Part shown: positions 14,162 through 42,536 of the stretch, piece after piece
How positions within the stretch are numbered: position 1 is the stretch's first letter
Layout of the letters: each line of letters begins with the position of its first letter
Origin: an uncultured bacterium
GTDB lineage: Bacteria; Patescibacteriota; Minisyncoccia; Phycocordibacterales; UBA11359
Assembly (NCBI GenBank): GCA_903831815.1
Contig: CAIKZC010000002.1
Span: forward strand, 7,244-71,243
DNA length: 64,000 nt
Direction: 5' to 3'
Notes under the pieces: model-generated
Seen by the model: only the letters and a program-made list of their open reading frames with translations
Database searches by the model: none
Told to the model about the DNA's origin: nothing
Program-made: the position numbers and the translations under genes

Positions 14162-15622
14162 TTAATCTTTTCGCATAAAGAGAGGTTTTTCGGGCATCGA
14201 GTTGTTTTTTATGATGTCTTTGATTTTTTCGGAAGTTTCCGGAAGTAACGGAGCCAACATGCAAGCGACATTGTAGAGACGAACAGCTAATTCAGAAATT
14301 ATTTCAATCGCTTTTTCTTTGTCAGTTTTGATTAATTTAAAGGGAGCAGTTGTCTGAATCATTGTGTCCAACTCCCCAATTTCGGCCCACACAATATCTG
14401 CCGCTTTTTTAAGATCGAAACTTTCGATTGCGTCTTTATAATTTTGTGGAATGTTATTTTCAGGAATTTTTATAGGCTCGACGAGATTAGTCGAAGCCAT
14501 TTTCATGACACGACTCACTAAGTTACCGAGACCGTTGGCTAAATTGGCGTTGTACGACAGTTTAAATTGCTCGAGAGTAAATGGTGAGTCTTCGAAAGGT
14601 TGCAATTCGCGCAAAACGAAATAGCGCAAGGCATCAATACCGTATTCAGAGACGATATCGCGAGGATCAACCACATTACCGAGACTCTTGCTCATTTTGA
14701 CGCCGCCGGCCCCCGTCACGAAGCCGTCGACTACGATAGTGTGCGTCGGCGGGAGGCCGGCGGAAACTAGCATTGCCTGCCACATAGCCGATTGCTGTCG
14801 CAAATTATCTTTGCCGCAGTATTGCACCGGTGTGCCACTGACCCAAAACTTTTCGAATTGCTCCTTATTTTCCGGCCAACCTAAAGTAGTAATATAGTTA
14901 GTCAAAGCATCAAACCACACATACATCACCTGTTTGTCGTCTCCCGGCACCGGCACGCCCCAAGGCATTTTGCTGGCTAAACGCGAAATACTGAAATCCT
15001 CCAAACCGCGTTCGACAAAAGCCCGTATCTCACGCAAACGGTTATCCGGCACAACCATTTTTGGATTCGCTACATACAAATCAAGTAATGCTTTTTGATA
15101 TTTGGAAAAACGAAAAAAATAATTTTCTTCGTCAATAAGTTCAATCGTTAGATTTGGGTGAAGCGGACATTTGCCATCAACAAGTTCCGAATCCGTTTTT
15201 TCCAACTCACAACCGACACAGTATTTTATTTTATAGGTTTTTTTGTAGATATCGCCGGCTTTTTCGCAAAGTTTCCAAAACTCCTGCGCCGCTTTTATAT
15301 GATGAGCATCCGTCGTTCGTACAATATGTATATCCGAAGTCATACCAACCTCTTTTATAAACTTCTGAAAGTTTGGAGCGAAGCCGTCAACGTACTTTTG
15401 CGGCTCTATCCCCTGCTCAGCTGCTTTCTTAAAAATTTTCAAACCATGCTCATCAGTTCCGGTATTAAAAAACACTTCATATCCCATCAGCTTTTTATAT
15501 CGCGCAATGACGTCGGCGCGAACAAACTCCAATGCGTGCCCCAAATGCAGATCAGCGTTCACGTACGGCAACGTTGTTGTAATATAAAAGTTATTGGAGT
15601 GACTCTCGTTTTTCATAGGCAA
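14162..15622 (-). CDS. metG: methionyl-tRNA synthetase (catalytic core only, no C-terminal tRNA-binding domain)
   Basis: HIGH motif LPYVNADLHLGH, KMSKS motif KMSKSLGNVV, Cys-containing CP knuckle. 486 aa ending just after the anticodon-binding helices. Confidence 0.85.
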   Translation of the reverse strand: MPMKNESHSNNFYITTTLPYVNADLHLGHALEFVRADVIARYKKLMGYEVFFNTGTDEHGLKIFKKAAEQGIEPQKYVDGFAPNFQKFIKEVGMTSDIHIVRTTDAHHIKAAQEFWKLCEKAGDIYKKTYKIKYCVGCELEKTDSELVDGKCPLHPNLTIELIDEENYFFRFSKYQKALLDLYVANPKMVVPDNRLREIRAFVERGLEDFSISRLASKMPWGVPVPGDDKQVMYVWFDALTNYITTLGWPENKEQFEKFWVSGTPVQYCGKDNLRQQSAMWQAMLVSAGLPPTHTIVVDGFVTGAGGVKMSKSLGNVVDPRDIVSEYGIDALRYFVLRELQPFEDSPFTLEQFKLSYNANLANGLGNLVSRVMKMASTNLVEPIKIPENNIPQNYKDAIESFDLKKAADIVWAEIGELDTMIQTTAPFKLIKTDKEKAIEIISELAVRLYNVACMLAPLLPETSEKIKDIIKNNSMPEKPLFMRKD

Positions 15623-15637
15623 AATTTTATGACTAAA

Positions 15638-16750
15638 TTATAGTACGACGTGTGATTCCGCAACTTGTGCTTGAACAGCTTCTTTGGCGGCCGGATTTTT
15701 GCCACGCTCAACGTCGCGCAAATATTCCATACCAATAGTCGCAAGAGGCACCGATATGACAAGGCCCAAAAATCCGGCCAGCTCATACCCGGCAATAAGA
15801 GAAATAATCACAATAATCGGATTGATTCCAACAATTTTGCGAACAACTAAAGGATAAATCAATTGATTTTCCAGTTGATGAATCAACAAATACATACCGG
15901 CGACAATAAGCGCCAAAGTAAAACCGCTATCAAGATACGAAAAGATCACCGCCGGGATAGCACCAATTATAGGCCCAAAAAGCGGTATAAATTCGCAAAT
16001 AGCGATGAACAAACTCAAAATTAATGCATCTTTAATTCCGAGTAAAGTTAGACCTAGATATGTGAGCAATCCGACAATAATGCTTAGCAACAATTGTCCT
16101 TGCATCCACTGACCTATTTTTCTTTGCGAACGTTTCCAAAGATCAAGTACGTATGGCTCATGTCGCACCGGCGCAATTATTTTCAAGAAATTACCGACTC
16201 CATCACGTTGAACTGACAAATAAAATGACAAAACAAATATGACGATGAAACTGACAACTCCTCCGACAAGAGATGAAGCTGCGTTGATAAATCCGCCGGA
16301 AATGGATGAAAATGAGTTACTGAAAGCGGCAACAGCATCTTTAAAAGACAAAGCTCCGGTCAAAGCTTCAACAAAAGGTTTCCATGTCAGTACTCCAAAC
16401 TGGTTGCTTGTATTATTGATAGCGGTGTATTTTTGAAGTGAATCGAACAAAGTCAAAACTTCCTGAAAAAGTTTCGGTAAAACGAAATAGAAAATTCCGA
16501 CAACTACTAGCGCGCTTACGAGATAAACAAAAAGAACCGCCAGCAATCGAGGTATTCTGCGCTGTTCAAACCATGAAGCCGCTGGCTCAATTGCCGATGC
16601 AATTATAACTGCCGTGAGCAAAACGAGAATAAGGTTTTTGAGAATCAGAACGACGGCAAAAAGCACAATGATAAGCAGTGTTCTCACAATGCTATCTGTT
16701 GAAATTGAGAACGTAACTTTATCCTTGTTCATACAAGGCAATAGTAACAC
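15638..16750 (-). CDS. AI-2E family transporter (PerM/UPF0118 membrane protein)
   Basis: 8 predicted TM helices. Conserved family pattern ...LIIVLFAVVLILKNLILVLLTAVIIASAIEP... Confidence 0.65.
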   Translation of the reverse strand: MLLLPCMNKDKVTFSISTDSIVRTLLIIVLFAVVLILKNLILVLLTAVIIASAIEPAASWFEQRRIPRLLAVLFVYLVSALVVVGIFYFVLPKLFQEVLTLFDSLQKYTAINNTSNQFGVLTWKPFVEALTGALSFKDAVAAFSNSFSSISGGFINAASSLVGGVVSFIVIFVLSFYLSVQRDGVGNFLKIIAPVRHEPYVLDLWKRSQRKIGQWMQGQLLLSIIVGLLTYLGLTLLGIKDALILSLFIAICEFIPLFGPIIGAIPAVIFSYLDSGFTLALIVAGMYLLIHQLENQLIYPLVVRKIVGINPIIVIISLIAGYELAGFLGLVISVPLATIGMEYLRDVERGKNPAAKEAVQAQVAESHVVL

Positions 16751-18120
16751 TAAATAGTGATTTTTGAAAGAATGTCCGAAATGGCTACCCTCTCCTGTTT
16801 TCCGCTATCGCGTTCGCGTATAGTGACCATATTATCGGTCAAAGTTTCAAAATCGACGGTGATGCAATATGGTGTACCAATTTCATCCTGTCGTCGATAA
16901 CGTTTACCAATATTACCGTTATCATCAAACATAATTTGAGGAATTTGTTTTTTGATCATATCGTAAACTTCACGAGCTTTTTCAACCAAATTTGGTTTGT
17001 TTTTTAGAAGAGGAAAAACCGCCGCTTTGATTGGAGCAAGATTTGTTGGAAATTTTAGAAAAACACGTTTCTCACCCCCCAATTCATCTTCGGTGTATGC
17101 TTTGGAGATTACAGCAAGAACATGTCTCCCTAAACCAAAAGTTGGCTCAAGAACATGGGGCACAGAACGCGTGTTATCAATCGGATCCAAATAAGATAGA
17201 TCCTTGCCGCTATTTTCAATATGATTTTTAAGGTCAAAATCGGTTCGATATGCCAAACCGGCAATTTCGTCAAATTTCTGCGGATAATTAAAATGAAAAT
17301 CAACTGTTCGTTTTGAATAATGAGCACGATCACCTTCTTCGATTTCGATTTCTTTAATATCTTCTTTGGTGAATCCGAGCAACTCGAACCATTTATGCAT
17401 TTGTTTTAACCAATATTCAAATTGTTCTTTCCATTGTTGTTCTTTAACAAAATATTCAAATTCCATTATCTCAAGCTCACGAACGCGAAATATAAAATCG
17501 CGAGGCGCTATTTCGTTACGGAATGAACGACCGATTTGAGCCATACCAAAAGGAAGTTTTGGATGATATGAATCTAAAATATTTTTGAAATTAACAAACA
17601 TTCCCTGAGCGGTTTCAGGTCTTAAATAAACAGTCGTATCCCCTCCTTCAATAGAACCGACCGAGGTTCTGAACATCATGTTAAATTGTTGTGGTGCAGT
17701 TAAATCATTGCCATCCGGGCTTTTAATTTTCTTTTCAACAATAATTTTACCCATTTCTTCCAAACTCATACCTTTTGGATCAACGCCAGCTTCTTCGAGC
17801 AAATGATCCGCTCGGAATCTTTTTTTGGTCTTTTTGTCTTCAACAAGCGGATCAGAAAAACCTCCAACATGACCGCTGGCTTCCCAGACTCGAGGATTCA
17901 TGAGAATAGCCGAATCAATACCAAACATATCATCACGAGAATCAACAAAAAAACGCCACCAAAGATTTTCTATATTTTTCTTGAGAGCCAAACCAAGAGG
18001 ACCATAGTCCCATGTGCCGGCAAGTCCTCCATATATCTCCGAGCCCTGATAAATAAAACCGCGTCGTTTGCAAAGCGAAACTAGTTTCTCCATGAGTTCA
18101 ATGTCTTTGGTCATATTCAA
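16750..18120 (-). CDS. glyQS: glycyl-tRNA synthetase, dimeric class II (GlyQS type)
   Basis: N-terminus ...RRGFIYQGSEIYGGLAGTWDYGPLG is characteristic of alpha2 GlyRS. Class II motifs and a C-terminal anticodon-binding domain. Stop overlaps the start of the AI-2E gene. Confidence 0.9.
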   Translation of the reverse strand: MNMTKDIELMEKLVSLCKRRGFIYQGSEIYGGLAGTWDYGPLGLALKKNIENLWWRFFVDSRDDMFGIDSAILMNPRVWEASGHVGGFSDPLVEDKKTKKRFRADHLLEEAGVDPKGMSLEEMGKIIVEKKIKSPDGNDLTAPQQFNMMFRTSVGSIEGGDTTVYLRPETAQGMFVNFKNILDSYHPKLPFGMAQIGRSFRNEIAPRDFIFRVRELEIMEFEYFVKEQQWKEQFEYWLKQMHKWFELLGFTKEDIKEIEIEEGDRAHYSKRTVDFHFNYPQKFDEIAGLAYRTDFDLKNHIENSGKDLSYLDPIDNTRSVPHVLEPTFGLGRHVLAVISKAYTEDELGGEKRVFLKFPTNLAPIKAAVFPLLKNKPNLVEKAREVYDMIKKQIPQIMFDDNGNIGKRYRRQDEIGTPYCITVDFETLTDNMVTIRERDSGKQERVAISDILSKITI

Positions 18121-18152
18121 TATCCTAGTACATTTAGAGAGCTAACGCAAAA

Positions 18153-20054
18153 TTATCTATTCACCACGCCCCATCCACTCTTAAATTGCGGGTCATCAAT
18201 GATATCCGTCGTCACAGAATCTGCTGACGATGTCAAAGCGGAATTTGTATATGTATCGTTGGCCTTTAAAGTGCTGTCTCCCATCAAGATCGGTATTGTG
18301 CCAACTTGAGAGAGACTTGGTAAGATCGAAACTTGGAAAGAAACTTGTCTTGGCGCGGAAGTGAATCCTGTATTGGTTTTAATATTTCCAACATTCCAAT
18401 CAACTTCGCCGGAAATAGGATCGTAAGTCAACGCTTCATTTTGTGGACTCACATTATTTAGAAACTTCACATATGAAGGCAAAACTGCCGACACCACAAC
18501 GTTTGAAATGTTGTTAAATGTATTGGAAATAGACCAATTTATCGTATACGTCGTATTTTGTTCGACTTTTGGCGGGATCGGTCCGGTATTATTTAAAGAT
18601 CCGGAACTATAAACGGCATTTGCCATAAGAGCAATATTTGAAGCTACGACGACACTGCGAGAAATGCCTGAAGAGATCGATATATTCCCGCTGCTTCCGA
18701 CCTGCGTAGCATTGACATTAGTGGACAGATTTATCTTCTGACTGCTTTTGGAATAAGAAGCGCCAACCGAGTACGGCAAAGTTTTAAAACTAAACTGCAC
18801 GGTACCTTTATCGCCCGGACTCAAAAAACCAAGTGCTGGAAGATTCCTTTTATCCCAAGTAATCGTATTGTCGGCCGATTGATAAAATCCTTGCGTCGAA
18901 AAAATATTATTTTTATCCAGTATCACGCCATCAAATTTCACCACGATCACGGCATCCGAAATGGAGGTCGACATATTATTGCTGTACGAAAGAGTCGCGT
19001 TGACAATATCCCCCGCCCTCACCGGATAAGGGTTTGAATTATTGTTATCGAAGGTCAAATCCAATCCGATAAAAGGTTTTTGGATCTTAACTGTTTCCGT
19101 ATCGGCATAAAAAACCGTTGCGATTTTATGAGTGTCTATGGGATTGTTAATGCCGACATTAAATTTGAAAGCTCGGTCCTCATTTTCTTGACCTTCAATT
19201 TTTCCGCTTACCATTATAGTTTTGTTTTCACCGGGAGCCAGATCGCCGATTTGCCAAACATTATTGTCTAGGCTTGCCGAAGGAACGGCATTTTTGAAGG
19301 TAAATCCAAATGGATATTGAGCATTAAGAGCCAAATTATTGAGAACTTCCGTGGAGTTTGAAGTTACAGTCACGGCAAAGGAAACATCCTGTCCAGAATT
19401 CACCTCCGCGACATGAGAAACGACCACCGAGACCGGGCTGGCGCCAAGAGTAAATAAATAATCTTTATTTCTTGCGAATAAGTTAGTCGAACCTAAAACA
19501 TGATACTCAACCGAAATTTTTATTTTTTCTTGAGTTCCTTCGAGTCCAAAAAATGCCGCATTAAAAGTGCGATCCAAATGGCCACCCGTTGCGAGGTTAC
19601 CGAGAGATATATGATCTTGAACTAAGGGTTCGGTTTGCGAAGCGTCCTTTCTGGCGCCATCCGGGTATTCGATATTTAAATATGCATCCTGCAGATCAAC
19701 CTGATTTTTGTTATCTATGGAAACAGCAAATGTCGAATCTCTACCCGCATCAATCGTCGGAGATCCGGTAACGGCAATATCGACATTGTCGGCTGAAATA
19801 GTGTTATAGCCGTTGTAATAAATGAATCCGGCGATACAAACTGCGACAAAAAAGAAAATGAAAGAAAACCAGACCAAAATTTTACCCAAAGGCCATTTGG
19901 TTTTTTTAATTGTATCAATTGGCGGAGTCCAAGTATCCTTTACTTCGTAAGTTTTATTGGGAAGATCATGAACGGGACTATCGGGCTTGAAATTTTGACG
20001 TGAATAAAGAGTCTTTTTTAAATCTTCAATTTTATTTTTATCGTCGGGGAACAT
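18153..20054 (-). CDS. large membrane-anchored extracellular hypothetical protein
   Basis: Single N-terminal TM (ILVWFSFIFFFVAVCIAGFIY) followed by about 570 aa of beta-rich repeats (Ig/DUF11-like). No catalytic motif recognised. Confidence 0.4.
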   Translation of the reverse strand: MFPDDKNKIEDLKKTLYSRQNFKPDSPVHDLPNKTYEVKDTWTPPIDTIKKTKWPLGKILVWFSFIFFFVAVCIAGFIYYNGYNTISADNVDIAVTGSPTIDAGRDSTFAVSIDNKNQVDLQDAYLNIEYPDGARKDASQTEPLVQDHISLGNLATGGHLDRTFNAAFFGLEGTQEKIKISVEYHVLGSTNLFARNKDYLFTLGASPVSVVVSHVAEVNSGQDVSFAVTVTSNSTEVLNNLALNAQYPFGFTFKNAVPSASLDNNVWQIGDLAPGENKTIMVSGKIEGQENEDRAFKFNVGINNPIDTHKIATVFYADTETVKIQKPFIGLDLTFDNNNSNPYPVRAGDIVNATLSYSNNMSTSISDAVIVVKFDGVILDKNNIFSTQGFYQSADNTITWDKRNLPALGFLSPGDKGTVQFSFKTLPYSVGASYSKSSQKINLSTNVNATQVGSSGNISISSGISRSVVVASNIALMANAVYSSGSLNNTGPIPPKVEQNTTYTINWSISNTFNNISNVVVSAVLPSYVKFLNNVSPQNEALTYDPISGEVDWNVGNIKTNTGFTSAPRQVSFQVSILPSLSQVGTIPILMGDSTLKANDTYTNSALTSSADSVTTDIIDDPQFKSGWGVVNR

Positions 20055-20089
20055 GAATAATATTATACCACAGGAGTAAACTCGCGCTT

Positions 20090-20692
20090 CTAGAGTTGTG
20101 TTTCTTTGATAGAAGAATTGATGAAATTGATGGCTTGCGAGCGAAAATTGGACATATTTTCAATCATTTCGGACGATAGCGCATCGTTGATGCACCATAA
20201 AAGCTCGGTTGGTGGCGCAAAATATCCGAGAGTATAGAGTATTTGGAGGAGCAAGATGAATTCGAGATTCATGACCTGTTTGATCGTTGGCAATTTGTTT
20301 TTTGTTCCACAGGTTAAATAGATTAAACCTTCGGAAAGATGATCGAAAAGCGCTTCGTTCTTTTCTTCGCCGTTTACTAGCCGGCGCACTAAACTTAAAA
20401 CACGAGATATCATGGCGACACTTTGCGGAACATCTTTTATTTGCCAATAAATATTGGAAATTTCACGCGCATTGACCACACGCCAACCGGCGCGACCGCG
20501 CACCAGAGAAACTTCAGAGATGGAAAGCGGTTGCAAACTGAAACGTAACTTTGAAGTTGAAAGACGCACCCCTTGCGCGGTCGCCAAAACCATTCCAAGT
20601 TCACGCGTAAAGATCCAATAATTTTTATTGGCTTCGCGAACATTAATAGCCTCGATGACTATTCCCCGCGTATGGTAGATATGATGACTCAT
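20090..20692 (-). CDS. recO: DNA repair protein RecO
   Basis: TRGIVIEAINVREANKNYWIFTRELGMVLATAQGVRLSTSKLRFSLQPLSISEVSL matches the RecO N-terminal OB-fold pattern. 200 aa. Confidence 0.6.
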   Translation of the reverse strand: MSHHIYHTRGIVIEAINVREANKNYWIFTRELGMVLATAQGVRLSTSKLRFSLQPLSISEVSLVRGRAGWRVVNAREISNIYWQIKDVPQSVAMISRVLSLVRRLVNGEEKNEALFDHLSEGLIYLTCGTKNKLPTIKQVMNLEFILLLQILYTLGYFAPPTELLWCINDALSSEMIENMSNFRSQAINFINSSIKETQL

Positions 20693-20698
20693 ATTTTT

Positions 20699-23600
20699 CT
20701 AAACTTTTTTGAGTTGTACTGTAAGGTGAAGGTCTTCGGCGACCACGGGGGTGCCGGTCGTGTTTTGAACGAAGGACGGCGCACTGACCAAATTTACTTT
20801 TTTAACAAGTTCATCATTATATTTTTTAATAAAAGCCACCGTCATATCATCACCGGAAAATTCCATCGATGCCTTATCTTGCGGATTAAATTCCATCTCT
20901 TTACGAACCTCTTGAATAGCGCGCATGAGCTCGCGCAATTTCCCCTCTTCGATAAGTTCCGGTGTCATTTTAACATCAACAAGAACCGTAACATCGTTTG
21001 CCGTCATGCTTTCGTTATTTTTTTCTTTCAATCCTAAACTTCGCTTAACCAATTTTACGTTCAATTCCTCGGCAATGATCGACTCAAATTCCGGAGAAAG
21101 CATATTTTCCGCATCATATTCAATTCCAGCAAGCGGTTGACGAACTTTTTTGCCTTCTTTGGCTCTAAAAGCCAATCCAACTTCAACGATTTTTCGCACG
21201 GTGTTCATGTCGGTCAAAATTTTGACATCATAATTCTCACAAACCGGCCAAACACGTAAATGAACACTTTCAGCATCTGTTTCATTTTTAACTTTCTGGT
21301 AGATATCTTCGGCAATAAAAGGCATAAATGGTGCGATCAAAATTGAAAATTCAAACAAAACATATCGCATAGTAGCCAAGGCAGCCTCTTTGTCCGCAGC
21401 ATCGTCGCCTTTGAAACGATCACGTGATCGACGCAAATACCAAACGGAAAAATCTTCAATGAAATCATCAATCGGACGCGCCGCTTTGTCTAGCATGTAA
21501 GCGCCAAGAGCGCCGGTAATAGTGTTACAAGTTTGAGATAATCGAGCTAAAATCCAGCGGTCTAAGACATTTTCACTATTTTTGTAAGCTGCAGAATTGT
21601 CGGCATAAAGTGCGTAAAAAGAATAAATATTATTCAAACGCATCAAAAGTTTTTTAACGACCTCATCAAGACCTTTTTCGGAAAAGAGCAGTTCTTCGGA
21701 TTTTACGGCCGGACTCGACATCAAATAATAACGTAGAGCGTCGGCGGAATATTTATCGACGGCTGGCATTATTTCGGGAAAATTTTTCAATCTCTTGGAC
21801 ATCTTTTTGCCGTCTTCTGCCAAGACCAAACCGTTCACTATCACATTTTTGTATGGCGACTCATTGAAAAGCGCCACACCTAAAACAATCAAAGTGTAAA
21901 ACCATCCACGAGTCTGGTCTAGTCCTTCACCAATAAAATCAGCCGGGAAATTTTTGTGTTTTTCGGCATCAAAAACCGTTTTTTCAAAAGGATAATGATT
22001 TTGCGCATATGGCATCGAACCGGAATCGTACCAAGTATCAAAAACATCCAAGACACGCGCAAATTTACCGCCACACTCACAAGGCCATGAAATATCATCG
22101 ATATAAGGTCGATGGAGGTCAAGCTCCAATTTTTCATTGCGAGGGATATGATAGAAATGATGTTGCTTTACTTCTCCCGGATGCAAATAATCTTCATCTT
22201 TGGTTGCCGAAATTGCCAATATTTGTTTGCGAGTAAGCCCTTGCGCACCCATTCGCATAAAGAAAAGCGGATCGTCGTGACTTACGATCAAAATATTTTT
22301 ACCCTCATTTTCCTTATCAATGCCTATCAAAAATTCAGTCACGCGATTTCTCACGTTTTCCACCGTCTCCCCACCATTTGGTGCTTTGATATAGCGTTCC
22401 TCTTTATTTTTAAACAATGCATGATATTCCGCGCAACTTTTGCCATCCATTTCACCAACGTTCAATTCGCGAATTCGTTTATCAAAAATGATTTTTTCAA
22501 TCGGAAACCCAATCGTTTCCGCCACGATCTCGGCCGTTTCTTTGGTCCGAACAAAATCAGAAGCGTAGATAATATCGATTTTTTTGCCTTTCAAACTTTT
22601 AGCCGATTTCGCCACGTCATCTCTACCTTTTTCGGTAAGATGATGTTGATTTTCAACTTTTGAACTCAAAATATTTTTAACATTATGCTCGCCTTCGCCG
22701 TGACGCATCAGGAAATAAGTATTCGAGCTTCTAACCTTTTGTTTGAGGTCGTCGATCGAACCGAGTACTTCGATCTTTTTACATTCCTTGCAACGCCAGA
22801 TCGGCATGGCTGTACCCCAATATCGCTGTCGTGAAATACCCCAATCTTTGGCGCCTTCCAGCCAATTTCCAAAGCGCGCTTCACCGACATAATCCGGCAC
22901 CCAATGAATTTTATTATTTTCCGCAACCAAACGCTTTTTGATTTCAGTCACTTTTACGAACCATGAAGAAGTCGCATAGTTGAGAAGCGGCGTATCACAT
23001 CGCCAACAATGGGGATATGAGTGAATTATTTTTTCTTTAGCAAAAAGATTGCCCTTACCGGCCAAATATTTGATGATCTCGATATCGGCTTTTTGATGAT
23101 CGCCTTTCGGTTTTACGTCCTGCCCAGCAAATTCAATGACTTCCTTTTTAAATTTTCCGTCGGCGCTGACATGTTGAACAAATGGAATTTTTTTCTCCTG
23201 TGACAATTGCAGATCATCCTCGCCAAAACCGGGCGCAATATGCACTACTCCCGTACCATCTTCGATCGTGACAAATTCGGCTTCGTATACATGCCAAGCA
23301 TTCTCTTTGTTCGGCAATTCAGTATCTTTGTAATATGGAAAAATCGGTTCGTATGATTTACCGACCAATTTTGTACCCTTAAATTCATCTTCAACGGTAT
23401 ATGCCGACTTTATCGTCGACAATCGATTTTTGGCCAGAATAAGTTTAATGGTTTTTTCTGGATTTTTCTCATCAACGATGGAGATTTGGACATAATCAAT
23501 CTTCGAATTTACAGCTAAAGCAAAGTTACCAGGCAATGTCCAAGGTGTCGTCGTCCAAGCCAGCAAAAAAGTGTCCGGTACAATCTCGTCTTTTTTATCC

Positions 23601-24295
23601 TTCAACTGAAACTTCACATAAACCGAAATATCGGTGATATCTTTGTAACCTTGGTTGACTTCAAAGTTGGAAAGCGTCGTGCCGCAATGCGGACAGAGAT
23701 GCACCGATTTATAACCTTCGTAAGCCAGATCTTTTTTGAAAAGCTCTTTGAACGACCACCAAACGGATTCCATATAGGTCGAATCCATGGTCATATAATA
23801 ATTGTCCATGTCCACAAAACGACCGAGACGCGGAATTATTTTTTTCCAATCGGCGTAATATCGCAAAACGCTTTCGCGTGCGGCTTTGTTAAATTTTTCG
23901 ATACCGTATTCCTCGATCTCTTTTTTATTCTTAAGCCCAAGTTCCTTTTCGATCAAATTTTCTATCGGCAAGCCATGACAATCCCAACCCCAACGACGAG
24001 TGACGTGATAACCTTGCATCGTTTTGAAACGTGGGATCACATCTTTCATTGTGCCGGAAAGGATATGACCATAGTGTGGCAAACCGGTCGCAAATGGTGG
24101 ACCATCGTAAAAAGTAAACTCACCTTTTGGCGCGTCTTTTTGCAAAGTTTTTTCAAAAATTTTGCTTTCATCCCAAAAAGCCAAAATCTCTTCCTCGCGA
24201 GCGGCTAATGCGCTTTTCAAAGGAACTTCTTTCGCCGGTTTAACGGATTCACTTCCCTTTTCTTTTTTAACTTTGTCTGTCGCCATATATTGAAA
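20699..24295 (-). CDS. ileS: isoleucyl-tRNA synthetase carrying an internal histidine-phosphatase (PGAM-like) domain insertion of about 200 aa
   Basis: HIGH PFATGLPHYGH, KMSKS KMSKRLKNFP, editing domain. The insertion lies between WGISRQRYWG and VLDVFDTWYDSG and carries RHGEGEHN and ILIVSHDDPLFFMR motifs. Start taken at MATDK (24295); the track ORF extends to 24367. Confidence 0.85.
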   Translation of the reverse strand, partial: FQYMATDKVKKEKGSESVKPAKEVPLKSALAAREEEILAFWDESKIFEKTLQKDAPKGEFTFYDGPPFATGLPHYGHILSGTMKDVIPRFKTMQGYHVTRRWGWDCHGLPIENLIEKELGLKNKKEIEEYGIEKFNKAARESVLRYYADWKKIIPRLGRFVDMDNYYMTMDSTYMESVWWSFKELFKKDLAYEGYKSVHLCPHCGTTLSNFEVNQGYKDITDISVYVKFQLKDKKDEIVPDTFLLAWTTTPWTLPGNFALAVNSKIDYVQISIVDEKNPEKTIKLILAKNRLSTIKSAYTVEDEFKGTKLVGKSYEPIFPYYKDTELPNKENAWHVYEAEFVTIEDGTGVVHIAPGFGEDDLQLSQEKKIPFVQHVSADGKFKKEVIEFAGQDVKPKGDHQKADIEIIKYLAGKGNLFAKEKIIHSYPHCWRCDTPLLNYATSSWFVKVTEIKKRLVAENNKIHWVPDYVGEARFGNWLEGAKDWGISRQRYWGTAMPIWRCKECKKIEVLGSIDDLKQKVRSSNTYFLMRHGEGEHNVKNILSSKVENQHHLTEKGRDDVAKSAKSLKGKKIDIIYASDFVRTKETAEIVAETIGFPIEKIIFDKRIRELNVGEMDGKSCAEYHALFKNKEERYIKAPNGGETVENVRNRVTEFLIGIDKENEGKNILIVSHDDPLFFMRMGAQGLTRKQILAISATKDEDYLHPGEVKQHHFYHIPRNEKLELDLHRPYIDDISWPCECGGKFARVLDVFDTWYDSGSMPYAQNHYPFEKTVFDAEKHKNFPADFIGEGLDQTRGWFYTLIVLGVALFNESPYKNVIVNGLVLAEDGKKMSKRLKNFPEIMPAVDKYSADALRYYLMSSPAVKSEELLFSEKGLDEVVKKLLMRLNNIYSFYALYADNSAAYKNSENVLDRWILARLSQTCNTITGALGAYMLDKAARPIDDFIEDFSVWYLRRSRDRFKGDDAADKEAALATMRYVLFEFSILIAPFMPFIAEDIYQKVKNETDAESVHLRVWPVCENYDVKILTDMNTVRKIVEVGLAFRAKEGKKVRQPLAGIEYDAENMLSPEFESIIAEELNVKLVKRSLGLKEKNNESMTANDVTVLVDVKMTPELIEEGKLRELMRAIQEVRKEMEFNPQDKASMEFSGDDMTVAFIKKYNDELVKKVNLVSAPSFVQNTTGTPVVAEDLHLTVQLKKV

Positions 24296-24382
24296 CATAC
24301 TAGCATTTTTCCTGATTTTATAAAAGAAAAGCCCGACGGTAAAGTAACCGAAGGGCTGGAATGCCACGAATGCGAAACATTA

Positions 24383-24763
24383 TCAAAATGCCGGAGTCGA
24401 ACCCTTGTGATCCCACATGCTTCCCCGGAAAAGAGCGTTGCGAACCCTGCGTCGCCGAAGAGCAAGTTTGTTCCCCGCCACAAACGTGTAGGGCCTCAGG
24501 GTCGGGACGTCGTCGGTGGAGTGCCAAATCTTCAGATCGAAGTGGCTATTCCGCCGGCTTTTGTCGATCAGCCGCATATCTTTGTAGAACACTTCACAAA
24601 CGGTATGAGGCAGGCCCTTGCTATCACGCAAGGTCATTGGCTCGGAAAACATGATCCCCTTCCCAATACTGTTCTCGGTATGAGTATCATGCCCCTCAAT
24701 GAAATACCTCTCCGGCCTGGTGCCTGGAGGATAAACCTTCGCCGCCTTCTTTTTTCTGGTCAC
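24383..24763 (-). CDS. GC-richer orphan hypothetical protein (126 aa, GTG start)
   Basis: RBS AAAGGAG 7 nt before the GTG. Downstream hairpin plus T-run at about 24330-24365. Locally higher GC than the flanking ileS/argS. No recognisable domain. Confidence 0.45.
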   Translation of the reverse strand: MTRKKKAAKVYPPGTRPERYFIEGHDTHTENSIGKGIMFSEPMTLRDSKGLPHTVCEVFYKDMRLIDKSRRNSHFDLKIWHSTDDVPTLRPYTFVAGNKLALRRRRVRNALFRGSMWDHKGSTPAF

Positions 24764-24838
24764 GATTAACTCCTTTCAAGTTCAAAAAATTACCATGGTT
24801 CTACCCAACACTAAACAACATTTCAGCGTTTTTTGCAA

Positions 24839-26566
24839 CTACATCTTTTCCGGAACGGAGATACCGAGCAATTTTAAGCCGTGATTCATTATCTGCACGA
24901 AACCGGCTGTCAAAGCGACCTTATAGGAAGCGGTTTCATCAGTTGGATCCACGATTTTGTTGGCGACATAATATGAATTGAATTCTCCGGAAAGTTGGAG
25001 CAAATAAGTTACTATATTCTGCGGAGCAAGATTAACGGTCGCGTGTTCAACGACTTCTTCGAAACGCGCAAGTAATTTTTCAAATTCTGAAACCTCGGCC
25101 GGAATATTTTTCTGAGATGGTTTTATCCCCTCTTTCTTGGCTTTTTGCAGAACCGAGTTGGCGCGCACACTACCGTATTGCAAATACGGACCCGAATCGC
25201 CTTCGAACGAGAGTGATTTTTCAAAATCAAAAATGATGTCGTTACCCGGAGCTTGTTTTAAAATTGAAAACTTAATCGCGGCAATCGCAACCGTATCAAG
25301 AATTTGTTTTTTCTCTTCCCCATTTAATTCACGGTCAGCAATTTTTTCGGCGACCATTTTCTCAACATCATGAATTAAAGATTCGCCGGTGATCACATTA
25401 CCTTTACGCGAACTCATTTTTCCCTCAGCAAAACGTAACATGCCATGGGAAATGTGTCTCATTTTATTAGCCGTTTCCGGAAAAATAAATTCGATAACCT
25501 TGAGCAAAACTTTAAAATATTCATTCTGCTCATTTCCCGTAACTGAAATCGACAGATCAAACGGATAGGTTTCAATTTTACGTTTGGCAAGACCGAGTTC
25601 TTTGGCTTCATAGGTCGGAATACCCTGAGAATTAACAAAAACACGAGTATGTAAGCCGTATTTCTCGCCCTTAAAAACAATCGCTCCCTCGCTTTTTTCA
25701 AATATTCCTTTTTGCAAAAATTCATCAACCAAAAACATGCCAATCGGCGCCATTTCGCTTTCGTAAAATTCAAAATCAAACCGCGTGTCGAGTTTTGGAA
25801 ATATTTCGTGAAAATGTTTTATACTGATCTCCCTACCCCACTTGTATAATTCTTCAATCTTAGCATCGGAATGTTCAAAAATTTTCTTATTTATTTCTTT
25901 TATGTTGTCCGCCAAAATCGGATCACTTTCAAAAGCGGTGTTGCCTTCGGCGTAGACACGACCAATGTAAGCAATTTCAGTCTCTTTACCGGATTTATCG
26001 TACGGAGTTTTCATCATACCCCAAATCGCTTTGGCTACATGCAAGCCCACATCACCTCCATAATATGCGCGTTTCACCTCCGCTCCGGCATTTTCAAAAA
26101 GTCGAGAAATAGTTTCTCCGATTGCATTCGACATCAAGTGCCCGATATGAAATGGTTTGAAAGGATTTGGATCGGTGTATTCGATCATCACCTTTCTGCC
26201 TTTGTGCAAATTATTTTTGCCGTATTCGCTACCATCTTTCAAAATCTGTTCGACAGTTTTGGCAAAAAATTCGCGGGTAAAATAAAAATTAATGAAACCG
26301 GGACCCGCGATCTCGATCCTCTCAACTTCAGAAAGTTTGTTTTTGCGAAATACTCCGCTTTTACGCTGTTTTTCCAATTCCAAAACGATCTTTTCGGCCA
26401 AGACACGCGGATTTTGTTTAGTAATTTTGGCGTGGATCAAAGCGGCGTTGGTGCTCAAGTCTCCGTGCTCAACGTCGTTCGGATATTCCAAACTAAAATC
26501 AATGACTCCGATCTTTAGATCAGCCAGCGCATCCCCGATTGCTTGTTGTAATTTTTGTTTGATCAT
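24839..26566 (-). CDS. argS: arginyl-tRNA synthetase
   Basis: HIGH motif PFHIGH, N-terminal Arg_tRNA_synt_N-like domain, DALR-type C-terminus. 575 aa. Confidence 0.9.
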   Translation of the reverse strand: MIKQKLQQAIGDALADLKIGVIDFSLEYPNDVEHGDLSTNAALIHAKITKQNPRVLAEKIVLELEKQRKSGVFRKNKLSEVERIEIAGPGFINFYFTREFFAKTVEQILKDGSEYGKNNLHKGRKVMIEYTDPNPFKPFHIGHLMSNAIGETISRLFENAGAEVKRAYYGGDVGLHVAKAIWGMMKTPYDKSGKETEIAYIGRVYAEGNTAFESDPILADNIKEINKKIFEHSDAKIEELYKWGREISIKHFHEIFPKLDTRFDFEFYESEMAPIGMFLVDEFLQKGIFEKSEGAIVFKGEKYGLHTRVFVNSQGIPTYEAKELGLAKRKIETYPFDLSISVTGNEQNEYFKVLLKVIEFIFPETANKMRHISHGMLRFAEGKMSSRKGNVITGESLIHDVEKMVAEKIADRELNGEEKKQILDTVAIAAIKFSILKQAPGNDIIFDFEKSLSFEGDSGPYLQYGSVRANSVLQKAKKEGIKPSQKNIPAEVSEFEKLLARFEEVVEHATVNLAPQNIVTYLLQLSGEFNSYYVANKIVDPTDETASYKVALTAGFVQIMNHGLKLLGISVPEKM

Positions 26567-42426: not shown

Positions 42427-42536
42427 GCAACATTGTGTTATTGTGAAAAATTATCATTGCTCCGCAGGTATAAAAATTGATATACTTTTATTCACCTAAG
42501 AAAAAGCAAAATTTATTAACCAATATTTTTTCACGT

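What the first reader, a model, noticed from the sequence alone, without database searches (positions are those of the whole stretch)
22135..22735. Isoleucyl-tRNA synthetase with an internal insertion of about 200 aa resembling a histidine-phosphatase (PGAM-like) domain
Between the conserved IleRS segments ...DWGISRQRYWGTAMPIW and ...VLDVFDTWYDSGSMPY (protein residues about 545-745 of the 24367-start ORF, roughly 535-735 from the MATDK start) lies a domain. It begins YFLMRHGEGEHNVKN (RHGxxxN, the catalytic His motif of the phosphoglycerate-mutase/histidine-phosphatase superfamily). It continues LTEKGRDDVAKSAKSL...IDIIYASDFVRTKETAEIV and ends NILIVSHDDPLFFMR (the second-His VSHxxxxR motif). Canonical bacterial IleRS has about 60 residues here. 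There are no intein motifs (no Cys/Ser at the junction and no HN at the C-terminus), so this reads as a domain insertion, not an intein. A phosphatase domain built into an aaRS catalytic core is unusual. It could hydrolyse a phospho-intermediate or misactivated aminoacyl-adenylate, or act on a nucleotide signal. I do not know of a described IleRS-PGAM chimera.
Basis: partly seen in the sequence, partly recalled or inferred. Interest (0 to 1): 0.75.

Follow-up and report, generated by a model that had tools for sequence, protein, structure and literature searches.

The report
Phosphatase nested inside isoleucyl-tRNA synthetase
The isoleucyl-tRNA synthetase of this uncultured Patescibacteria bacterium carries a complete histidine phosphatase with an intact catalytic site inside its catalytic core; relatives encode the same phosphatase as a separate gene just upstream of ileS, and I found no paper describing the pairing.

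Summary
The gene at window 20699-24298 (- strand) is a full type-2 IleRS. Residues 521-726 (window 22121-22738) are a Pfam His_Phos_1 domain (E 1.7e-31). It sits between the two helices of the CP3 subdomain, between the halves of a CxxC/CxC zinc knuckle, and replaces a loop of about 7 residues.

It is not an assembly artefact or an intein. The identical protein occurs in independent assemblies, and 135 of 164 related loci carry the same insert.

The catalytic residues R532, H533, R584 and H674 are invariant in 157 sequences. The acid E611 is E or D. AlphaFold models are confident, and the domain resembles small phosphatases (PhoE, Rv2419c, PspA) rather than phosphoglycerate mutases.

New finding: in 22 related loci the phosphatase is a free-standing gene immediately upstream of an ileS that lacks the insert. 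The two arrangements switched at least three times. A related phosphatase sits at the homologous CP3 site of ValRS in Gracilibacteria and Peregrinibacteria.

I conclude that it is an active phosphomonoesterase functionally tied to class Ia tRNA synthetases. The substrate is unknown. Eight literature searches found no description.

The parts
20699..24298 (-). ileS, a type-2 (eukaryote/archaea-like) isoleucyl-tRNA synthetase of 1199 aa including the nested phosphatase. All residue numbers in this report count from this start.
   Evidence: TIGR00392 ileS scores 884 bits against a cut-off of 621. Foldseek matches P. megaterium IleRS2 8C8V (TMt 0.84) and T. thermophilus 1ILE (TMt 0.90). The start is the one used by public gene calls.
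24065..24076 (-). HIGH signature (HYGH, residues 75-78) of the synthetic site
   Evidence: Translation verified. Invariant in the 119-sequence alignment.
23537..23554 (-). TTTPWT motif of the CP1 editing domain (residues 249-254); editing apparatus intact
   Evidence: The motif assignment is from established knowledge of IleRS editing.
22739..22810 (-). N-terminal half of the CP3 subdomain (residues 497-520): beta-hairpin with CKEC (22781-22792) and the helix GSIDDLKQ
   Evidence: AF2 secondary structure E500-503, E509-511, H515-521. CP3 is defined in C. albicans and T. thermophilus IleRS in PMC7191050. The four Cys are present in 46 of 71 orthologues.
22121..22738 (-). Nested insert, residues 521-726: short N-linker, histidine phosphatase domain, and a C-linker conserved across orthologues (family consensus FxPxPHNxNYEL; HFYHIPRNEKLEL in this protein)
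   Evidence: Boundaries come from the alignment to human IleRS 9W01 and to insert-less relatives. pLDDT is 92-97 in the full-length model.
22217..22714 (-). Pfam PF00300 His_Phos_1 match (residues 529-694)
   Evidence: coordinates verified.
22697..22705 (-). RHG motif (R532, H533 as the predicted phospho-accepting nucleophile, G534)
   Evidence: R and H are invariant in 135 nested and 22 free-standing homologues. Aligned to the RHG of PhoE 1EBB.
22547..22549 (-). R584, second phosphate-binding arginine (SDFVRTKETA)
   Evidence: Invariant in 157 of 157 sequences.
22466..22468 (-). E611, predicted general acid/base (RELNVG, the phosphatase-type motif rather than the mutase-type ERHYG)
   Evidence: E in 120 and D in 15 nested forms; E in 9 and D in 13 free-standing forms.
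22277..22279 (-). H674, second catalytic-site histidine (IVSHDD)
   Evidence: Invariant in 157 of 157 sequences. One short fragment elsewhere (P0008) has Y.
22049..22120 (-). C-terminal half of CP3 (residues 727-750): helix DLHRPYIDD and a beta-hairpin with CEC (22073-22081)
   Evidence: DLHRPYID is also present in insert-less relatives.
21791..21805 (-). KMSKS signature (KMSKR, residues 832-836)
24839..26566 (-). argS, directly upstream. In relatives with the alternative arrangement, the free-standing phosphatase gene sits between argS and ileS.
20090..20692 (-). recO, directly downstream; part of the conserved argS-ileS-recO gene order

Best explanation
Shown: this is a type-2 IleRS with intact synthetic and editing motifs, from an uncultured Paceibacteria (Patescibacteria) bacterium; whether it is the genome's only IleRS could not be checked. 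A complete PhoE-like branch-1 histidine phosphatase is nested between the two helices of the peripheral CP3 subdomain, inside its zinc knuckle. The synthetase motifs (HYGH, KMSKR, TTTPWT) are intact. The phosphatase keeps the full catalytic set.

Inferred from the established chemistry of the superfamily: H533 attacks a phosphomonoester to give a phospho-histidine intermediate. R532, R584, H674 and N539 hold the phosphate. E611 protonates the leaving group and then activates water. The polypeptide is therefore two enzymes in one chain.

Shown: the phosphatase belongs to a family specific to the candidate phyla radiation (CPR) and linked to ileS in two interchangeable ways. It is either a free-standing gene of about 190-200 aa immediately upstream of an ileS that lacks the insert (argS-phosphatase-ileS), or the nested domain seen here (argS-ileS). 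The arrangement switched several times. A related phosphatase is nested, in 1-4 tandem copies, at the homologous CP3 site of ValRS in Gracilibacteria and Peregrinibacteria.

Inferred: the phosphatase is an accessory activity of class Ia aminoacylation, delivered in trans or in cis, much as free-standing and inserted editing domains are in other synthetases. It is not an unrelated passenger. It acts on a phosphomonoester met at the synthetase, such as a nucleotide, a phosphorylated tRNA 3' end or a phosphorylated small molecule. The substrate is not identified.
For: Domain identity and fold:
- Pfam E 1.7e-31.
- PDB sequence hits to PhoE 1EBB/1H2E at E 1e-14.
- AF2 pLDDT 92.1 and pTM 0.84 for the full length, 94.7 for the domain alone.
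- Foldseek TM 0.70-0.77 and rmsd 2.5-2.9 A to Rv2419c, PspA and PhoE.

Selection on catalysis:
- R532, H533, R584, H674, E644 and R652 are invariant in 135 nested and 22 free-standing sequences that are only 35-50% identical overall.
- The insert diverges at about the same rate as the C-terminal half of IleRS.
- Base composition matches the rest of the gene.

Spread:
- The best 120 full-length homologues all carry PF00300.

Linkage to ileS:
- 22 loci have a free-standing phosphatase gene upstream of ileS; the gap is -7 to +40 nt in 19 of them (991-2220 nt in the other three).
- In 13 of 13 cases where the CP3 region is visible, that ileS lacks the insert.
- None of the 135 nested loci had its best phosphatase match outside the ileS ORF; second copies were not searched for.
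- IleRS neighbour-joining (NJ) bootstrap places free-standing-type and nested-type enzymes as sisters three times at 100%.
- Free-standing and nested phosphatases reach 60-64% identity to each other.

Parallel in ValRS: 71 of the 120 nearest ValRS carry the domain, 64 of them at the homologous CP3 site.

Among 147 new cluster representatives found with the insert, the only fusion partners identified are IleRS and ValRS: 106 fusions, one of them to ValRS.
Against: - No substrate can be read from the sequence. No NCBIfam equivalog cut-off is reached (CobC 70-75 vs 163 bits; PspA 62-66 vs 350; archaeal dPGM 89-92 vs 225; SixA 42 vs 74.5).
- CP3 is a peripheral, structurally variable subdomain (PMC7191050).
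- CPR IleRS also accept unrelated nested domains: GNAT, a P-loop kinase-like domain and a RAYT transposase-like domain. The site could simply be permissive.
- The conserved gene order also includes the functionally unrelated recO, so adjacency alone is weak evidence.
- The one insert-less ValRS locus examined has no phosphatase neighbour.
- I could not obtain model coordinates or predicted aligned errors. Whether the phosphatase pocket faces the synthetic site or the tRNA path is unknown.
- The trees are neighbour-joining only.
Confidence: 0.6

Rival explanations
1. Passenger enzyme. The phosphatase is an ordinary metabolic or scavenging phosphomonoesterase of the PhoE type. Its gene lay next to ileS by inherited gene order and was captured into a permissive surface loop. 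Fusion gives co-expression in a tiny genome but no mechanistic link to aminoacylation.
For: CP3 is peripheral and variable, and its zinc motif is dispensable (46 of 71 orthologues keep the four Cys). Other unrelated domains are nested in CPR IleRS. The argS-ileS spacer is a variable spot holding unrelated small ORFs. recO shares the same conserved neighbourhood. PhoE-type enzymes are broad-specificity phosphatases (established knowledge).
Against: The arrangement switched repeatedly, yet always between 'next to ileS' and 'inside ileS at the same site'. A related domain was independently nested at the homologous site of ValRS in another CPR class. No fusions to non-synthetase proteins were identified among the closest 147 representatives.
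Confidence: 0.28
2. Glycolytic cofactor-dependent phosphoglycerate mutase. The nested domain supplies the mutase step of lower glycolysis in these reduced genomes.
For: The best NCBIfam hit is the archaeal short dPGM model (89-92 bits). The monomeric S. pombe mutase 1FZT is among the structural neighbours (TMq 0.73).
Against: The score is far below the 225-bit cut-off. The motif after the catalytic Glu is RELNVGEMDGK, as in PhoE (REIHLGDWEGK), not the mutase ERHYG. The mutase-specific insertion and C-terminal tail are absent (established knowledge of dPGM). The larger canonical dPGMs (about 230-250 aa) align at rmsd of about 5-8 A, against 2.5-2.9 A for the phosphatases.
Confidence: 0.04
3. 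Non-catalytic role. The domain serves as a dimerisation or scaffolding module, or as a phosphate or ligand sensor that regulates IleRS, with catalysis irrelevant.
For: Many histidine phosphatases are dimers (established knowledge). Tandem copies in ValRS could mimic a dimer. Short conserved linkers suggest rigid mounting.
Against: The whole catalytic set is invariant in 157 diverged sequences, including all four copies in ValRS P0179. This is the pattern expected for an enzyme, not a pseudo-enzyme.
Confidence: 0.05
4. Pre-transfer editing aid. The domain hydrolyses misactivated aminoacyl-adenylates.
For: It sits in the catalytic core of an editing synthetase. IleRS and ValRS are the two enzymes with the heaviest editing load (established knowledge).
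Against: Histidine phosphatases act on dianionic phosphomonoesters. An acyl-adenylate is a substituted phosphate normally handled by HIT-family enzymes (established knowledge). The CP1 editing motifs are intact, so no editing function is visibly missing.
Confidence: 0.02
5. Artefact or selfish element: an assembly chimera, an intein or a recent mobile insertion.
For: None beyond the oddity of a nested domain.
Against: The identical protein occurs in independent assemblies. Hundreds of orthologues have an uninterrupted frame. Composition is the same as the host gene. There are no intein or endonuclease families and no intein junction residues. No mobile-element or intein family is hit in the protein; repeats flanking the insert were not searched for.
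Confidence: 0.01

Closest known systems
PhoE (YhfR) broad-specificity phosphatase of Geobacillus stearothermophilus (PDB 1EBB, 1H2E) and other small branch-1 histidine phosphatases (Rv2419c glucosyl-3-phosphoglycerate phosphatase, PspA phosphoserine phosphatase, CobC, TIGAR)
   Same: Same fold and catalytic residues. Same E-x-x-x-G-x-x-[DE]-G-K motif after the catalytic Glu. Similar size of about 190-200 aa. TM 0.70-0.77.
   Different: Only 20-28% identical. Reaches no curated family cut-off. Nested in, or encoded next to, a class Ia tRNA synthetase. Substrate unknown.
Type-2 IleRS (P. megaterium IleRS2 8C8V, T. thermophilus IleRS 1ILE, yeast and human cytoplasmic IleRS)
   Same: Same overall architecture and motifs. 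CP3 has a zinc knuckle as in T. thermophilus. C-terminal domains of type 2.
   Different: About 206 extra residues forming an independent enzyme between the two CP3 helices. No solved or described IleRS found here has this.
Free-standing versus inserted editing domains of synthetases (ProRS INS domain and YbaK/ProX; AlaRS editing domain and AlaX; ThrRS)
   Same: The same evolutionary pattern: one accessory catalytic module occurs either as a separate gene or as a domain inside the synthetase (comparison from established knowledge; pattern shown here).
   Different: Those modules are aminoacyl-tRNA deacylases of unrelated folds with known substrates. This one is a phosphomonoesterase of unknown substrate.
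NCBIfam NF040702 'ileS_w_GNAT' (IleRS containing an N-acetyltransferase domain)
   Same: A precedent, curated in a database, for an IleRS carrying an extra enzyme domain. One CPR IleRS fragment (P0207) carries both His_Phos_1 and a GNAT domain.
   Different: The window protein scores 321 bits against a cut-off of 1999, and P0207 scores 218. In P0207 the GNAT sits at a different site, after SGSMPYA, and is a different enzyme.
Bifunctional RNase H / acid phosphatase (Rv2228c type, NCBIfam PRK07238) and 6-phosphofructo-2-kinase/fructose-2,6-bisphosphatase
   Same: Branch-1 histidine phosphatase domains fused to another enzyme. PRK07238 is the second-best NCBIfam hit (79-102 bits).
   Different: Those are end-to-end fusions. 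Here the domain is nested within the partner's catalytic core. Scores are far below the cut-off of 326.

Membership tests
Histidine phosphatase superfamily, branch 1 (Pfam PF00300) | Profile score above the curated threshold | tested here: met
   110-114 bits against a cut-off of 21.7; E 1.7e-31 and 7.1e-33.
Histidine phosphatase superfamily, branch 1 (Pfam PF00300) | RHG motif with the nucleophilic His at the end of strand 1 | tested here: met
   R532-H533-G534 follow strand E527-532. R and H are invariant in 157 sequences.
Histidine phosphatase superfamily, branch 1 (Pfam PF00300) | Second Arg, second His and an acidic proton donor forming the phosphate pocket | tested here: met
   R584 and H674 are invariant; E611 is E or D. 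RHG aligns with PhoE's RHG, and the alignment runs to just past VSH/VTH, in the alignment to PhoE.
Histidine phosphatase superfamily, branch 1 (Pfam PF00300) | Alpha/beta fold superposable on solved members | tested here: met
   Model pLDDT 94.7. TM 0.70-0.77 and rmsd 2.5-2.9 A to 6S2Q, 4QIH, 1H2E and 4IJ6.
Histidine phosphatase superfamily, branch 1 (Pfam PF00300) | Phosphatase or mutase activity through a phospho-histidine intermediate | not testable with these tools
   Needs an enzyme assay.
Cofactor-dependent phosphoglycerate mutase (dPGM) | Curated family score, ERHYG motif, mutase-specific insertion and C-terminal tail | tested here: not met
   NF038349 scores 89-92 against 225, and TIGR01258 scores 33 against 81.7. 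The sequence has RELNVG. The larger canonical dPGMs (about 230-250 aa) align at rmsd of about 5-8 A. The motif definition is from established knowledge.
Alpha-ribazole phosphatase CobC, phosphoserine phosphatase PspA, SixA | Curated equivalog score | tested here: not met
   TIGR03162 scores 70-75 against 163; NF045917 scores 62-66 against 350; TIGR00249 scores 42 against 74.5.
Isoleucyl-tRNA synthetase (TIGR00392) | Curated equivalog score | tested here: met
   884 bits against a cut-off of 621.
Isoleucyl-tRNA synthetase (TIGR00392) | HIGH and KMSKS signatures and CP1 editing motifs | tested here: met
   HYGH, KMSKR, TTTPWT and GTGVVHIAP are present and conserved.
Isoleucyl-tRNA synthetase (TIGR00392) | Type-2 subclass (closer to eukaryote, archaea and MupA enzymes; type-2 C-terminal domains) | tested here: met
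   E 1e-211 to 1e-215 to type-2 structures against 1e-72 to 1e-91 for type-1. DUF5915 C-terminal domain. Foldseek ranks IleRS2 first.
Isoleucyl-tRNA synthetase (TIGR00392) | Only IleRS of the genome (housekeeping enzyme) | not testable with these tools
Intein | Cys/Ser/Thr at the N-junction, HN plus Cys/Ser/Thr at the C-junction, Hint or endonuclease domains | tested here: not met
   The junctions are ...LKQ|KVRSS... and ...EKLEL|DLHR.... No Hint or LAGLIDADG families are hit.
NCBIfam ileS_w_GNAT (NF040702) | Curated score | tested here: not met
   321 bits against a cut-off of 1999.

The most novel reading that the evidence does not exclude
The phosphatase is a previously unrecognised accessory activity of class Ia synthetases (IleRS, ValRS) in the candidate phyla radiation. 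It is delivered in trans (adjacent gene) or in cis (CP3 insert). It clears a blocking phosphate from the substrate of aminoacylation. One example would be a 3'-phosphate or 3'-pyrophosphate left on the tRNA CCA end by nucleases or by toxins that phosphorylate tRNA. Another would be a phosphorylated near-cognate ligand or inhibitor. It would then be a repair or quality-control module analogous to trans-editing factors, but with phosphoester chemistry.
Probability: 0.15. Interest if true: 0.9.

Novelty: new variant of a known kind. Interest (0 to 1): 0.72.

Why it matters
Aminoacyl-tRNA synthetases are among the best-studied enzymes. Extra domains are well documented in eukaryotes, but those are mostly non-catalytic appendages at the termini.

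Here an enzyme with an intact catalytic site and an unrelated chemistry sits inside the catalytic core of an essential bacterial synthetase. It is the standard state in a large part of the Patescibacteria. It alternates with an adjacent-gene form and recurs in ValRS. That pattern is a classic signal of functional association, and it points to an unknown step linked to Ile and Val charging in organisms with minimal genomes.

The finding is directly testable with recombinant protein.

It also has a practical side. NCBI names these proteins only 'class I tRNA ligase family protein'. The nested domain may also produce false phosphoglycerate-mutase or phosphatase calls in metabolic reconstructions of CPR genomes; I did not test this.

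Tried and rejected
- The first alignment (A1) was too ragged for the genome scan. I rebuilt it as A2.
- A look-up of the protein from the MATDK start found nothing. The MFQY start is the one on record.
- Rfam found no RNA family in the GC-rich argS-ileS spacer at E up to 1. The spacer holds a small ORF instead. It is not a remnant of a phosphatase gene (no tblastn hit).
- PADLOC found no defence-system match for the nested or free-standing phosphatase.
- The P-loop domain of variant P0281 could not be assigned to a kinase type. The best PDB sequence hits have E 0.02-0.06 (APS kinase, shikimate kinase, Pnkp1). I draw no conclusion from it.
- The one insert-less ValRS locus examined shows no neighbouring phosphatase.
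- The AFDB Foldseek library was unavailable.
- Model coordinates are not exposed, so the orientation of the phosphatase pocket relative to the synthetic site could not be measured.
- A plain NJ tree of the phosphatase domain does not resolve nested from free-standing forms. Only the bootstrapped IleRS tree gave supported statements.
- Eight literature searches found nothing on a synthetase-histidine phosphatase chimera. They covered IleRS, ValRS, aaRS, histidine phosphatase, phosphoglycerate mutase, His_Phos_1, Patescibacteria and CPR.
- A 2026 survey of 96,219 IleRS sequences does not mention phosphatase or Patescibacteria.
Full report
**1. The observation**

The window has one long ORF at 20699-24367 on the minus strand. 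Public gene calls start it at MFQY, window 24298, giving 1199 aa. That exact protein is recorded on three contigs from independent ENA metagenome assemblies, with argS upstream and recO downstream as in the window. All residue numbers below use this start.

Pfam finds tRNA-synt_1 in two pieces separated by PF00300 His_Phos_1 (E 1.7e-31), followed by Anticodon_1 and DUF5915. NCBIfam gives TIGR00392 ileS at 884 bits, above its cut-off of 621, and ranks the eukaryote-like MupA/MupB models next.

Against human cytoplasmic IleRS (9W01), residues 24-520 align to chain 5-490 and residues 727-1088 to chain 498-884. So about 206 residues stand where the canonical enzyme has about seven.

I verified by translation the coordinates of the insert (22121-22738), RHG (22697-22705), R584, E611, H674, the CKEC and CEC half-knuckles, HYGH, KMSKR and TTTPWT.

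**2. Not an artefact, not an intein, not recent**

- The identical protein appears in independent assemblies.
The best 80 loci all cover the whole insert at 40-50% identity.
- In nearly all of those loci it lies in an uninterrupted ORF of about 1150-1200 aa.
- The 120 best of 8000 full-length homologues in the protein collection all carry PF00300.
- Record titles place these genomes in Patescibacteria, class Paceibacteria (Taylor-, Nomura-, Zambryski-, Kaiser- and Lloydbacteria, Minisyncoccia). The closest proteins (70-80% identity) are unnamed metagenome sequences.
- GC content of the insert (0.393) matches the rest of the gene (0.412) and the window (0.411).
- No intein or endonuclease family is hit, and the junction residues are not those of an intein.

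**3. What the insert is**

By sequence, the closest solved proteins are the broad-specificity phosphatase PhoE of G. stearothermophilus (1EBB/1H2E, E 1e-14), then TIGAR, S. pombe phosphoglycerate mutase and the PspA phosphoserine phosphatase.

AlphaFold2 models are confident. The whole protein has mean pLDDT 92.1 and pTM 0.84, with 92-97 across the insert. The excised domain has pLDDT 94.7.

Foldseek places the whole model on type-2 IleRS structures (8C8V TMt 0.84, 1ILE TMt 0.90). It places the domain on small histidine phosphatases (Rv2419c, PspA, PhoE; TM 0.70-0.77, rmsd 2.5-2.9 A). The larger canonical phosphoglycerate mutases (about 230-250 aa) align only at rmsd of about 5-8 A.

The motif after the catalytic Glu is RELNVGEMDGK. 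This matches PhoE (REIHLGDWEGK) and not the mutase signature ERHYG (established knowledge). No curated NCBIfam equivalog cut-off is reached for CobC, PspA, archaeal dPGM or SixA. So it is a branch-1 histidine phosphatase of the small phosphatase type, belonging to no characterised subfamily.

**4. Where it sits**

The C. albicans IleRS paper defines CP3 as residues 473-534, and the alignment break falls at about residue 497 of that enzyme. The insertion point is therefore in the CP3 subdomain, which connects CP2 to the second half of the Rossmann fold. The same paper notes that T. thermophilus CP3 has a zinc motif that the yeast and S. aureus enzymes lack (PMC7191050).

In the model the order is as follows:
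- a beta-hairpin with C503/C506
- helix 515-521
- five residues later, the first phosphatase strand ending in RHG
- after the last phosphatase strand, a linker of about 12 residues that is well conserved among nested forms (FxPxPHNxNYEL)
- the second CP3 helix (DLHRPYID)
- the hairpin with C740/C742

The four cysteines are present in 46 of 71 orthologues. The short, conserved linkers suggest a fixed mounting. I could not retrieve coordinates, so the orientation of the active site is unknown.

**5. Evidence that it is an active enzyme under selection**

In 71 full-length orthologues from different species, R532, H533, G534, R584, E611, E644, R652 and H674 are 100% conserved, and N539 is conserved in 70 of 71.

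In the larger set of 135 nested and 22 free-standing sequences, R532, H533, R584, H674, E644 and R652 remain invariant. E611 is E or D.

The insert is 40-50% identical between species whose IleRS N-halves are 45-66% identical and C-halves 38-53% identical. So it evolves like the rest of the protein. The synthetase's own HIGH, KMSKS and editing motifs are invariant.

**6. The main new finding: two interchangeable arrangements**

The nearest free-standing homologue (P0005, 189 aa, 49% identical) lies between argS and a convergent ileS that has no insert. A second one (P0011) lies between argS and ileS on the same strand, with 2-nt gaps between the genes.

A metagenome scan seeded with free-standing forms returned 80 loci. 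Together with the earlier loci, I classified 164:
- 135 have the nested domain.
- 22 have a free-standing gene of about 190-200 aa directly upstream of ileS. The gap is -7 to +40 nt in 19 of them.
- In all 13 loci of the second kind where the CP3 region is on the contig, ileS lacks the insert. There are 37-57 residues between reference positions 500 and 741, against 240 in nested forms.

The gene order argS-ileS-recO is widely conserved among nested loci.

I built a bootstrapped neighbour-joining tree of IleRS with the insert removed (120 taxa, 853 columns, 100 replicates):
- Free-standing-type enzymes are sister to nested-type enzymes three times at 100% support (L087+L059, L098+L120, L106/L113+L136).
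- There is one pure free-standing clade at 100%.
- There is an all-nested clade of 59 leaves at 98%.

Free-standing and nested phosphatases reach 60-64% identity to each other. The arrangement has therefore switched several times, always between 'just upstream of ileS' and 'inside ileS at this site'. The direction of the switches is not resolved.

**7. Parallel in ValRS, and other variants**

A phmmer search of the insert against 1.84 billion cluster representatives gave 87 hits at E <= 1e-30 and 1551 at E <= 1e-10. Of the 147 new proteins in the top list, 106 are synthetase fusions and 35 are free-standing proteins.

One fusion, P0179, is a ValRS with four phosphatase domains, all with RHG. 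Searching with it showed that 71 of the 120 nearest ValRS carry the domain. Where named, these are Gracilibacteria and Peregrinibacteria. In 64 of the 71 the domain is at the homologous site between DWxISRQ and DTWFSS, in one to three tandem copies. The one insert-less ValRS locus examined had no phosphatase neighbour.

Some CPR IleRS carry further nested domains at a second site, after SGSMPYA:
- P0281 has a P-loop kinase-like domain of unassignable type.
- P0207 has a GNAT domain, and also a RAYT/IS200-like domain within the editing-domain region.

**8. How it most likely works**

Shown: the polypeptide combines an intact IleRS with a phosphatase whose catalytic residues are intact, and the phosphatase family is genetically tied to ileS and, in another lineage, to valS.

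Inferred from superfamily chemistry: H533 forms a phospho-histidine intermediate on a phosphomonoester, with R532, R584, H674 and N539 binding phosphate and E611 acting as acid/base.

Inferred from the neighbour/fusion pattern and the ValRS parallel: the activity serves aminoacylation by class Ia enzymes. This would be comparable to editing modules that exist either free-standing or inserted.

I put about 0.95 on the structural and evolutionary statements, and about 0.5-0.6 on functional coupling. The substrate is open.

A weak hint: free-standing forms are more basic than nested ones. Median net charge is +7 against -2, with Mann-Whitney p = 5e-4. The sequences are not independent and both distributions are broad. 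This would fit a need to find an acidic partner such as tRNA or IleRS when the domain is not tethered.

The main rival (about 0.28) is a passenger phosphatase parked in a permissive loop. Supporting it: CP3 is variable, other nested domains occur, and recO shares the neighbourhood.

A glycolytic mutase role, a non-catalytic role and adenylate hydrolysis are each unlikely, for the reasons given under rival explanations.

**9. Comparison with what is known, and novelty**

The two halves are ordinary members of known families. The combination, the nesting site, the alternation with an adjacent gene and the ValRS parallel are not described in anything I could find. That covers eight full-text searches and a 2026 preprint that annotated domain architectures of 96,219 IleRS sequences.

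The sequences themselves have been public for years with precomputed Pfam hits. JGI calls them isoleucyl-tRNA synthetase, and NCBI calls them 'class I tRNA ligase family protein'. NCBIfam has a curated model for an IleRS with a GNAT domain, so domain-bearing IleRS enzymes are not unprecedented.

I rate this a new variant of a known kind, with interest 0.72. It is surprising to a synthetase specialist and immediately testable, but no function is demonstrated.

Noticed in passing
window 24299-24838; ORF 24383-24763 (-): The 540-nt argS-ileS spacer is GC-rich (0.48-0.54 against 0.41 for the window). It holds a 126-aa ORF with a strong Shine-Dalgarno sequence (AAGGAG, then GTG). There is no Pfam, PADLOC or Rfam match. 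In a relative with 74% identical IleRS (L168 2424-2906), the same spacer holds an unrelated 160-aa ORF. This is the position where other lineages keep the free-standing phosphatase gene.
   Followed up: partly
P0179, P0306-P0423 (not in the window): ValRS of Gracilibacteria and Peregrinibacteria carries one to four tandem histidine phosphatase domains, mostly at the CP3 site homologous to the IleRS insertion. A few have a copy at a second site before DWxISRQ.
   Followed up: partly
P0281 residues about 737-869; P0207 residues 326-472 and 921-1065: Some CPR IleRS carry further nested domains. P0281 has a P-loop kinase-like domain, and P0207 a GNAT acetyltransferase, both after SGSMPYA. P0207 also has a REP-associated tyrosine transposase-like domain within the editing-domain region.
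   Followed up: partly
free-standing phosphatases on L084-L157 compared with nested domains: Free-standing forms are markedly more basic (median pI 9.3, net charge +7) than nested ones (pI 6.7, net charge -2). They mostly have Q in place of N539 and D in place of E611.
   Followed up: partly
P0008 (223-aa fragment): One IleRS fragment has Tyr in place of the second catalytic His (IVTYEGP). It is the only departure seen, and could be a sequencing error or a dead copy.
   Followed up: no
P0025 (125 aa, on a 591-bp contig): This fragment joins part of a related phosphatase to a tRNA_bind (PF01588) domain. It could be another synthetase fusion or a chimeric short contig.
   Followed up: no
window 14162-26566 (-): Several synthetase genes lie on one strand: metG (14162-15622), a class II synthetase with HGTP_anticodon (16750-18120), ileS and argS. 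A DUF11 surface-type protein (18153-20054) and recO lie between them.
   Followed up: partly
window 48138-50900 (-) and 42477-44867 (+): There is a 920-aa HerA/TraG-like ATPase (type IV secretion coupling-protein family) and a ribonucleotide reductase with an ATP-cone and a B12-type insertion domain.
   Followed up: no
L168 1-621: In the relative with 74% identical IleRS, a reverse transcriptase (RVT_1) gene lies directly upstream of argS.
   Followed up: no
L133, L149, P0014: A few orthologous ileS genes are broken by frameshifts or stops within or near the insert. These are probably assembly or long-read errors, but pseudogenes are not excluded.
   Followed up: no
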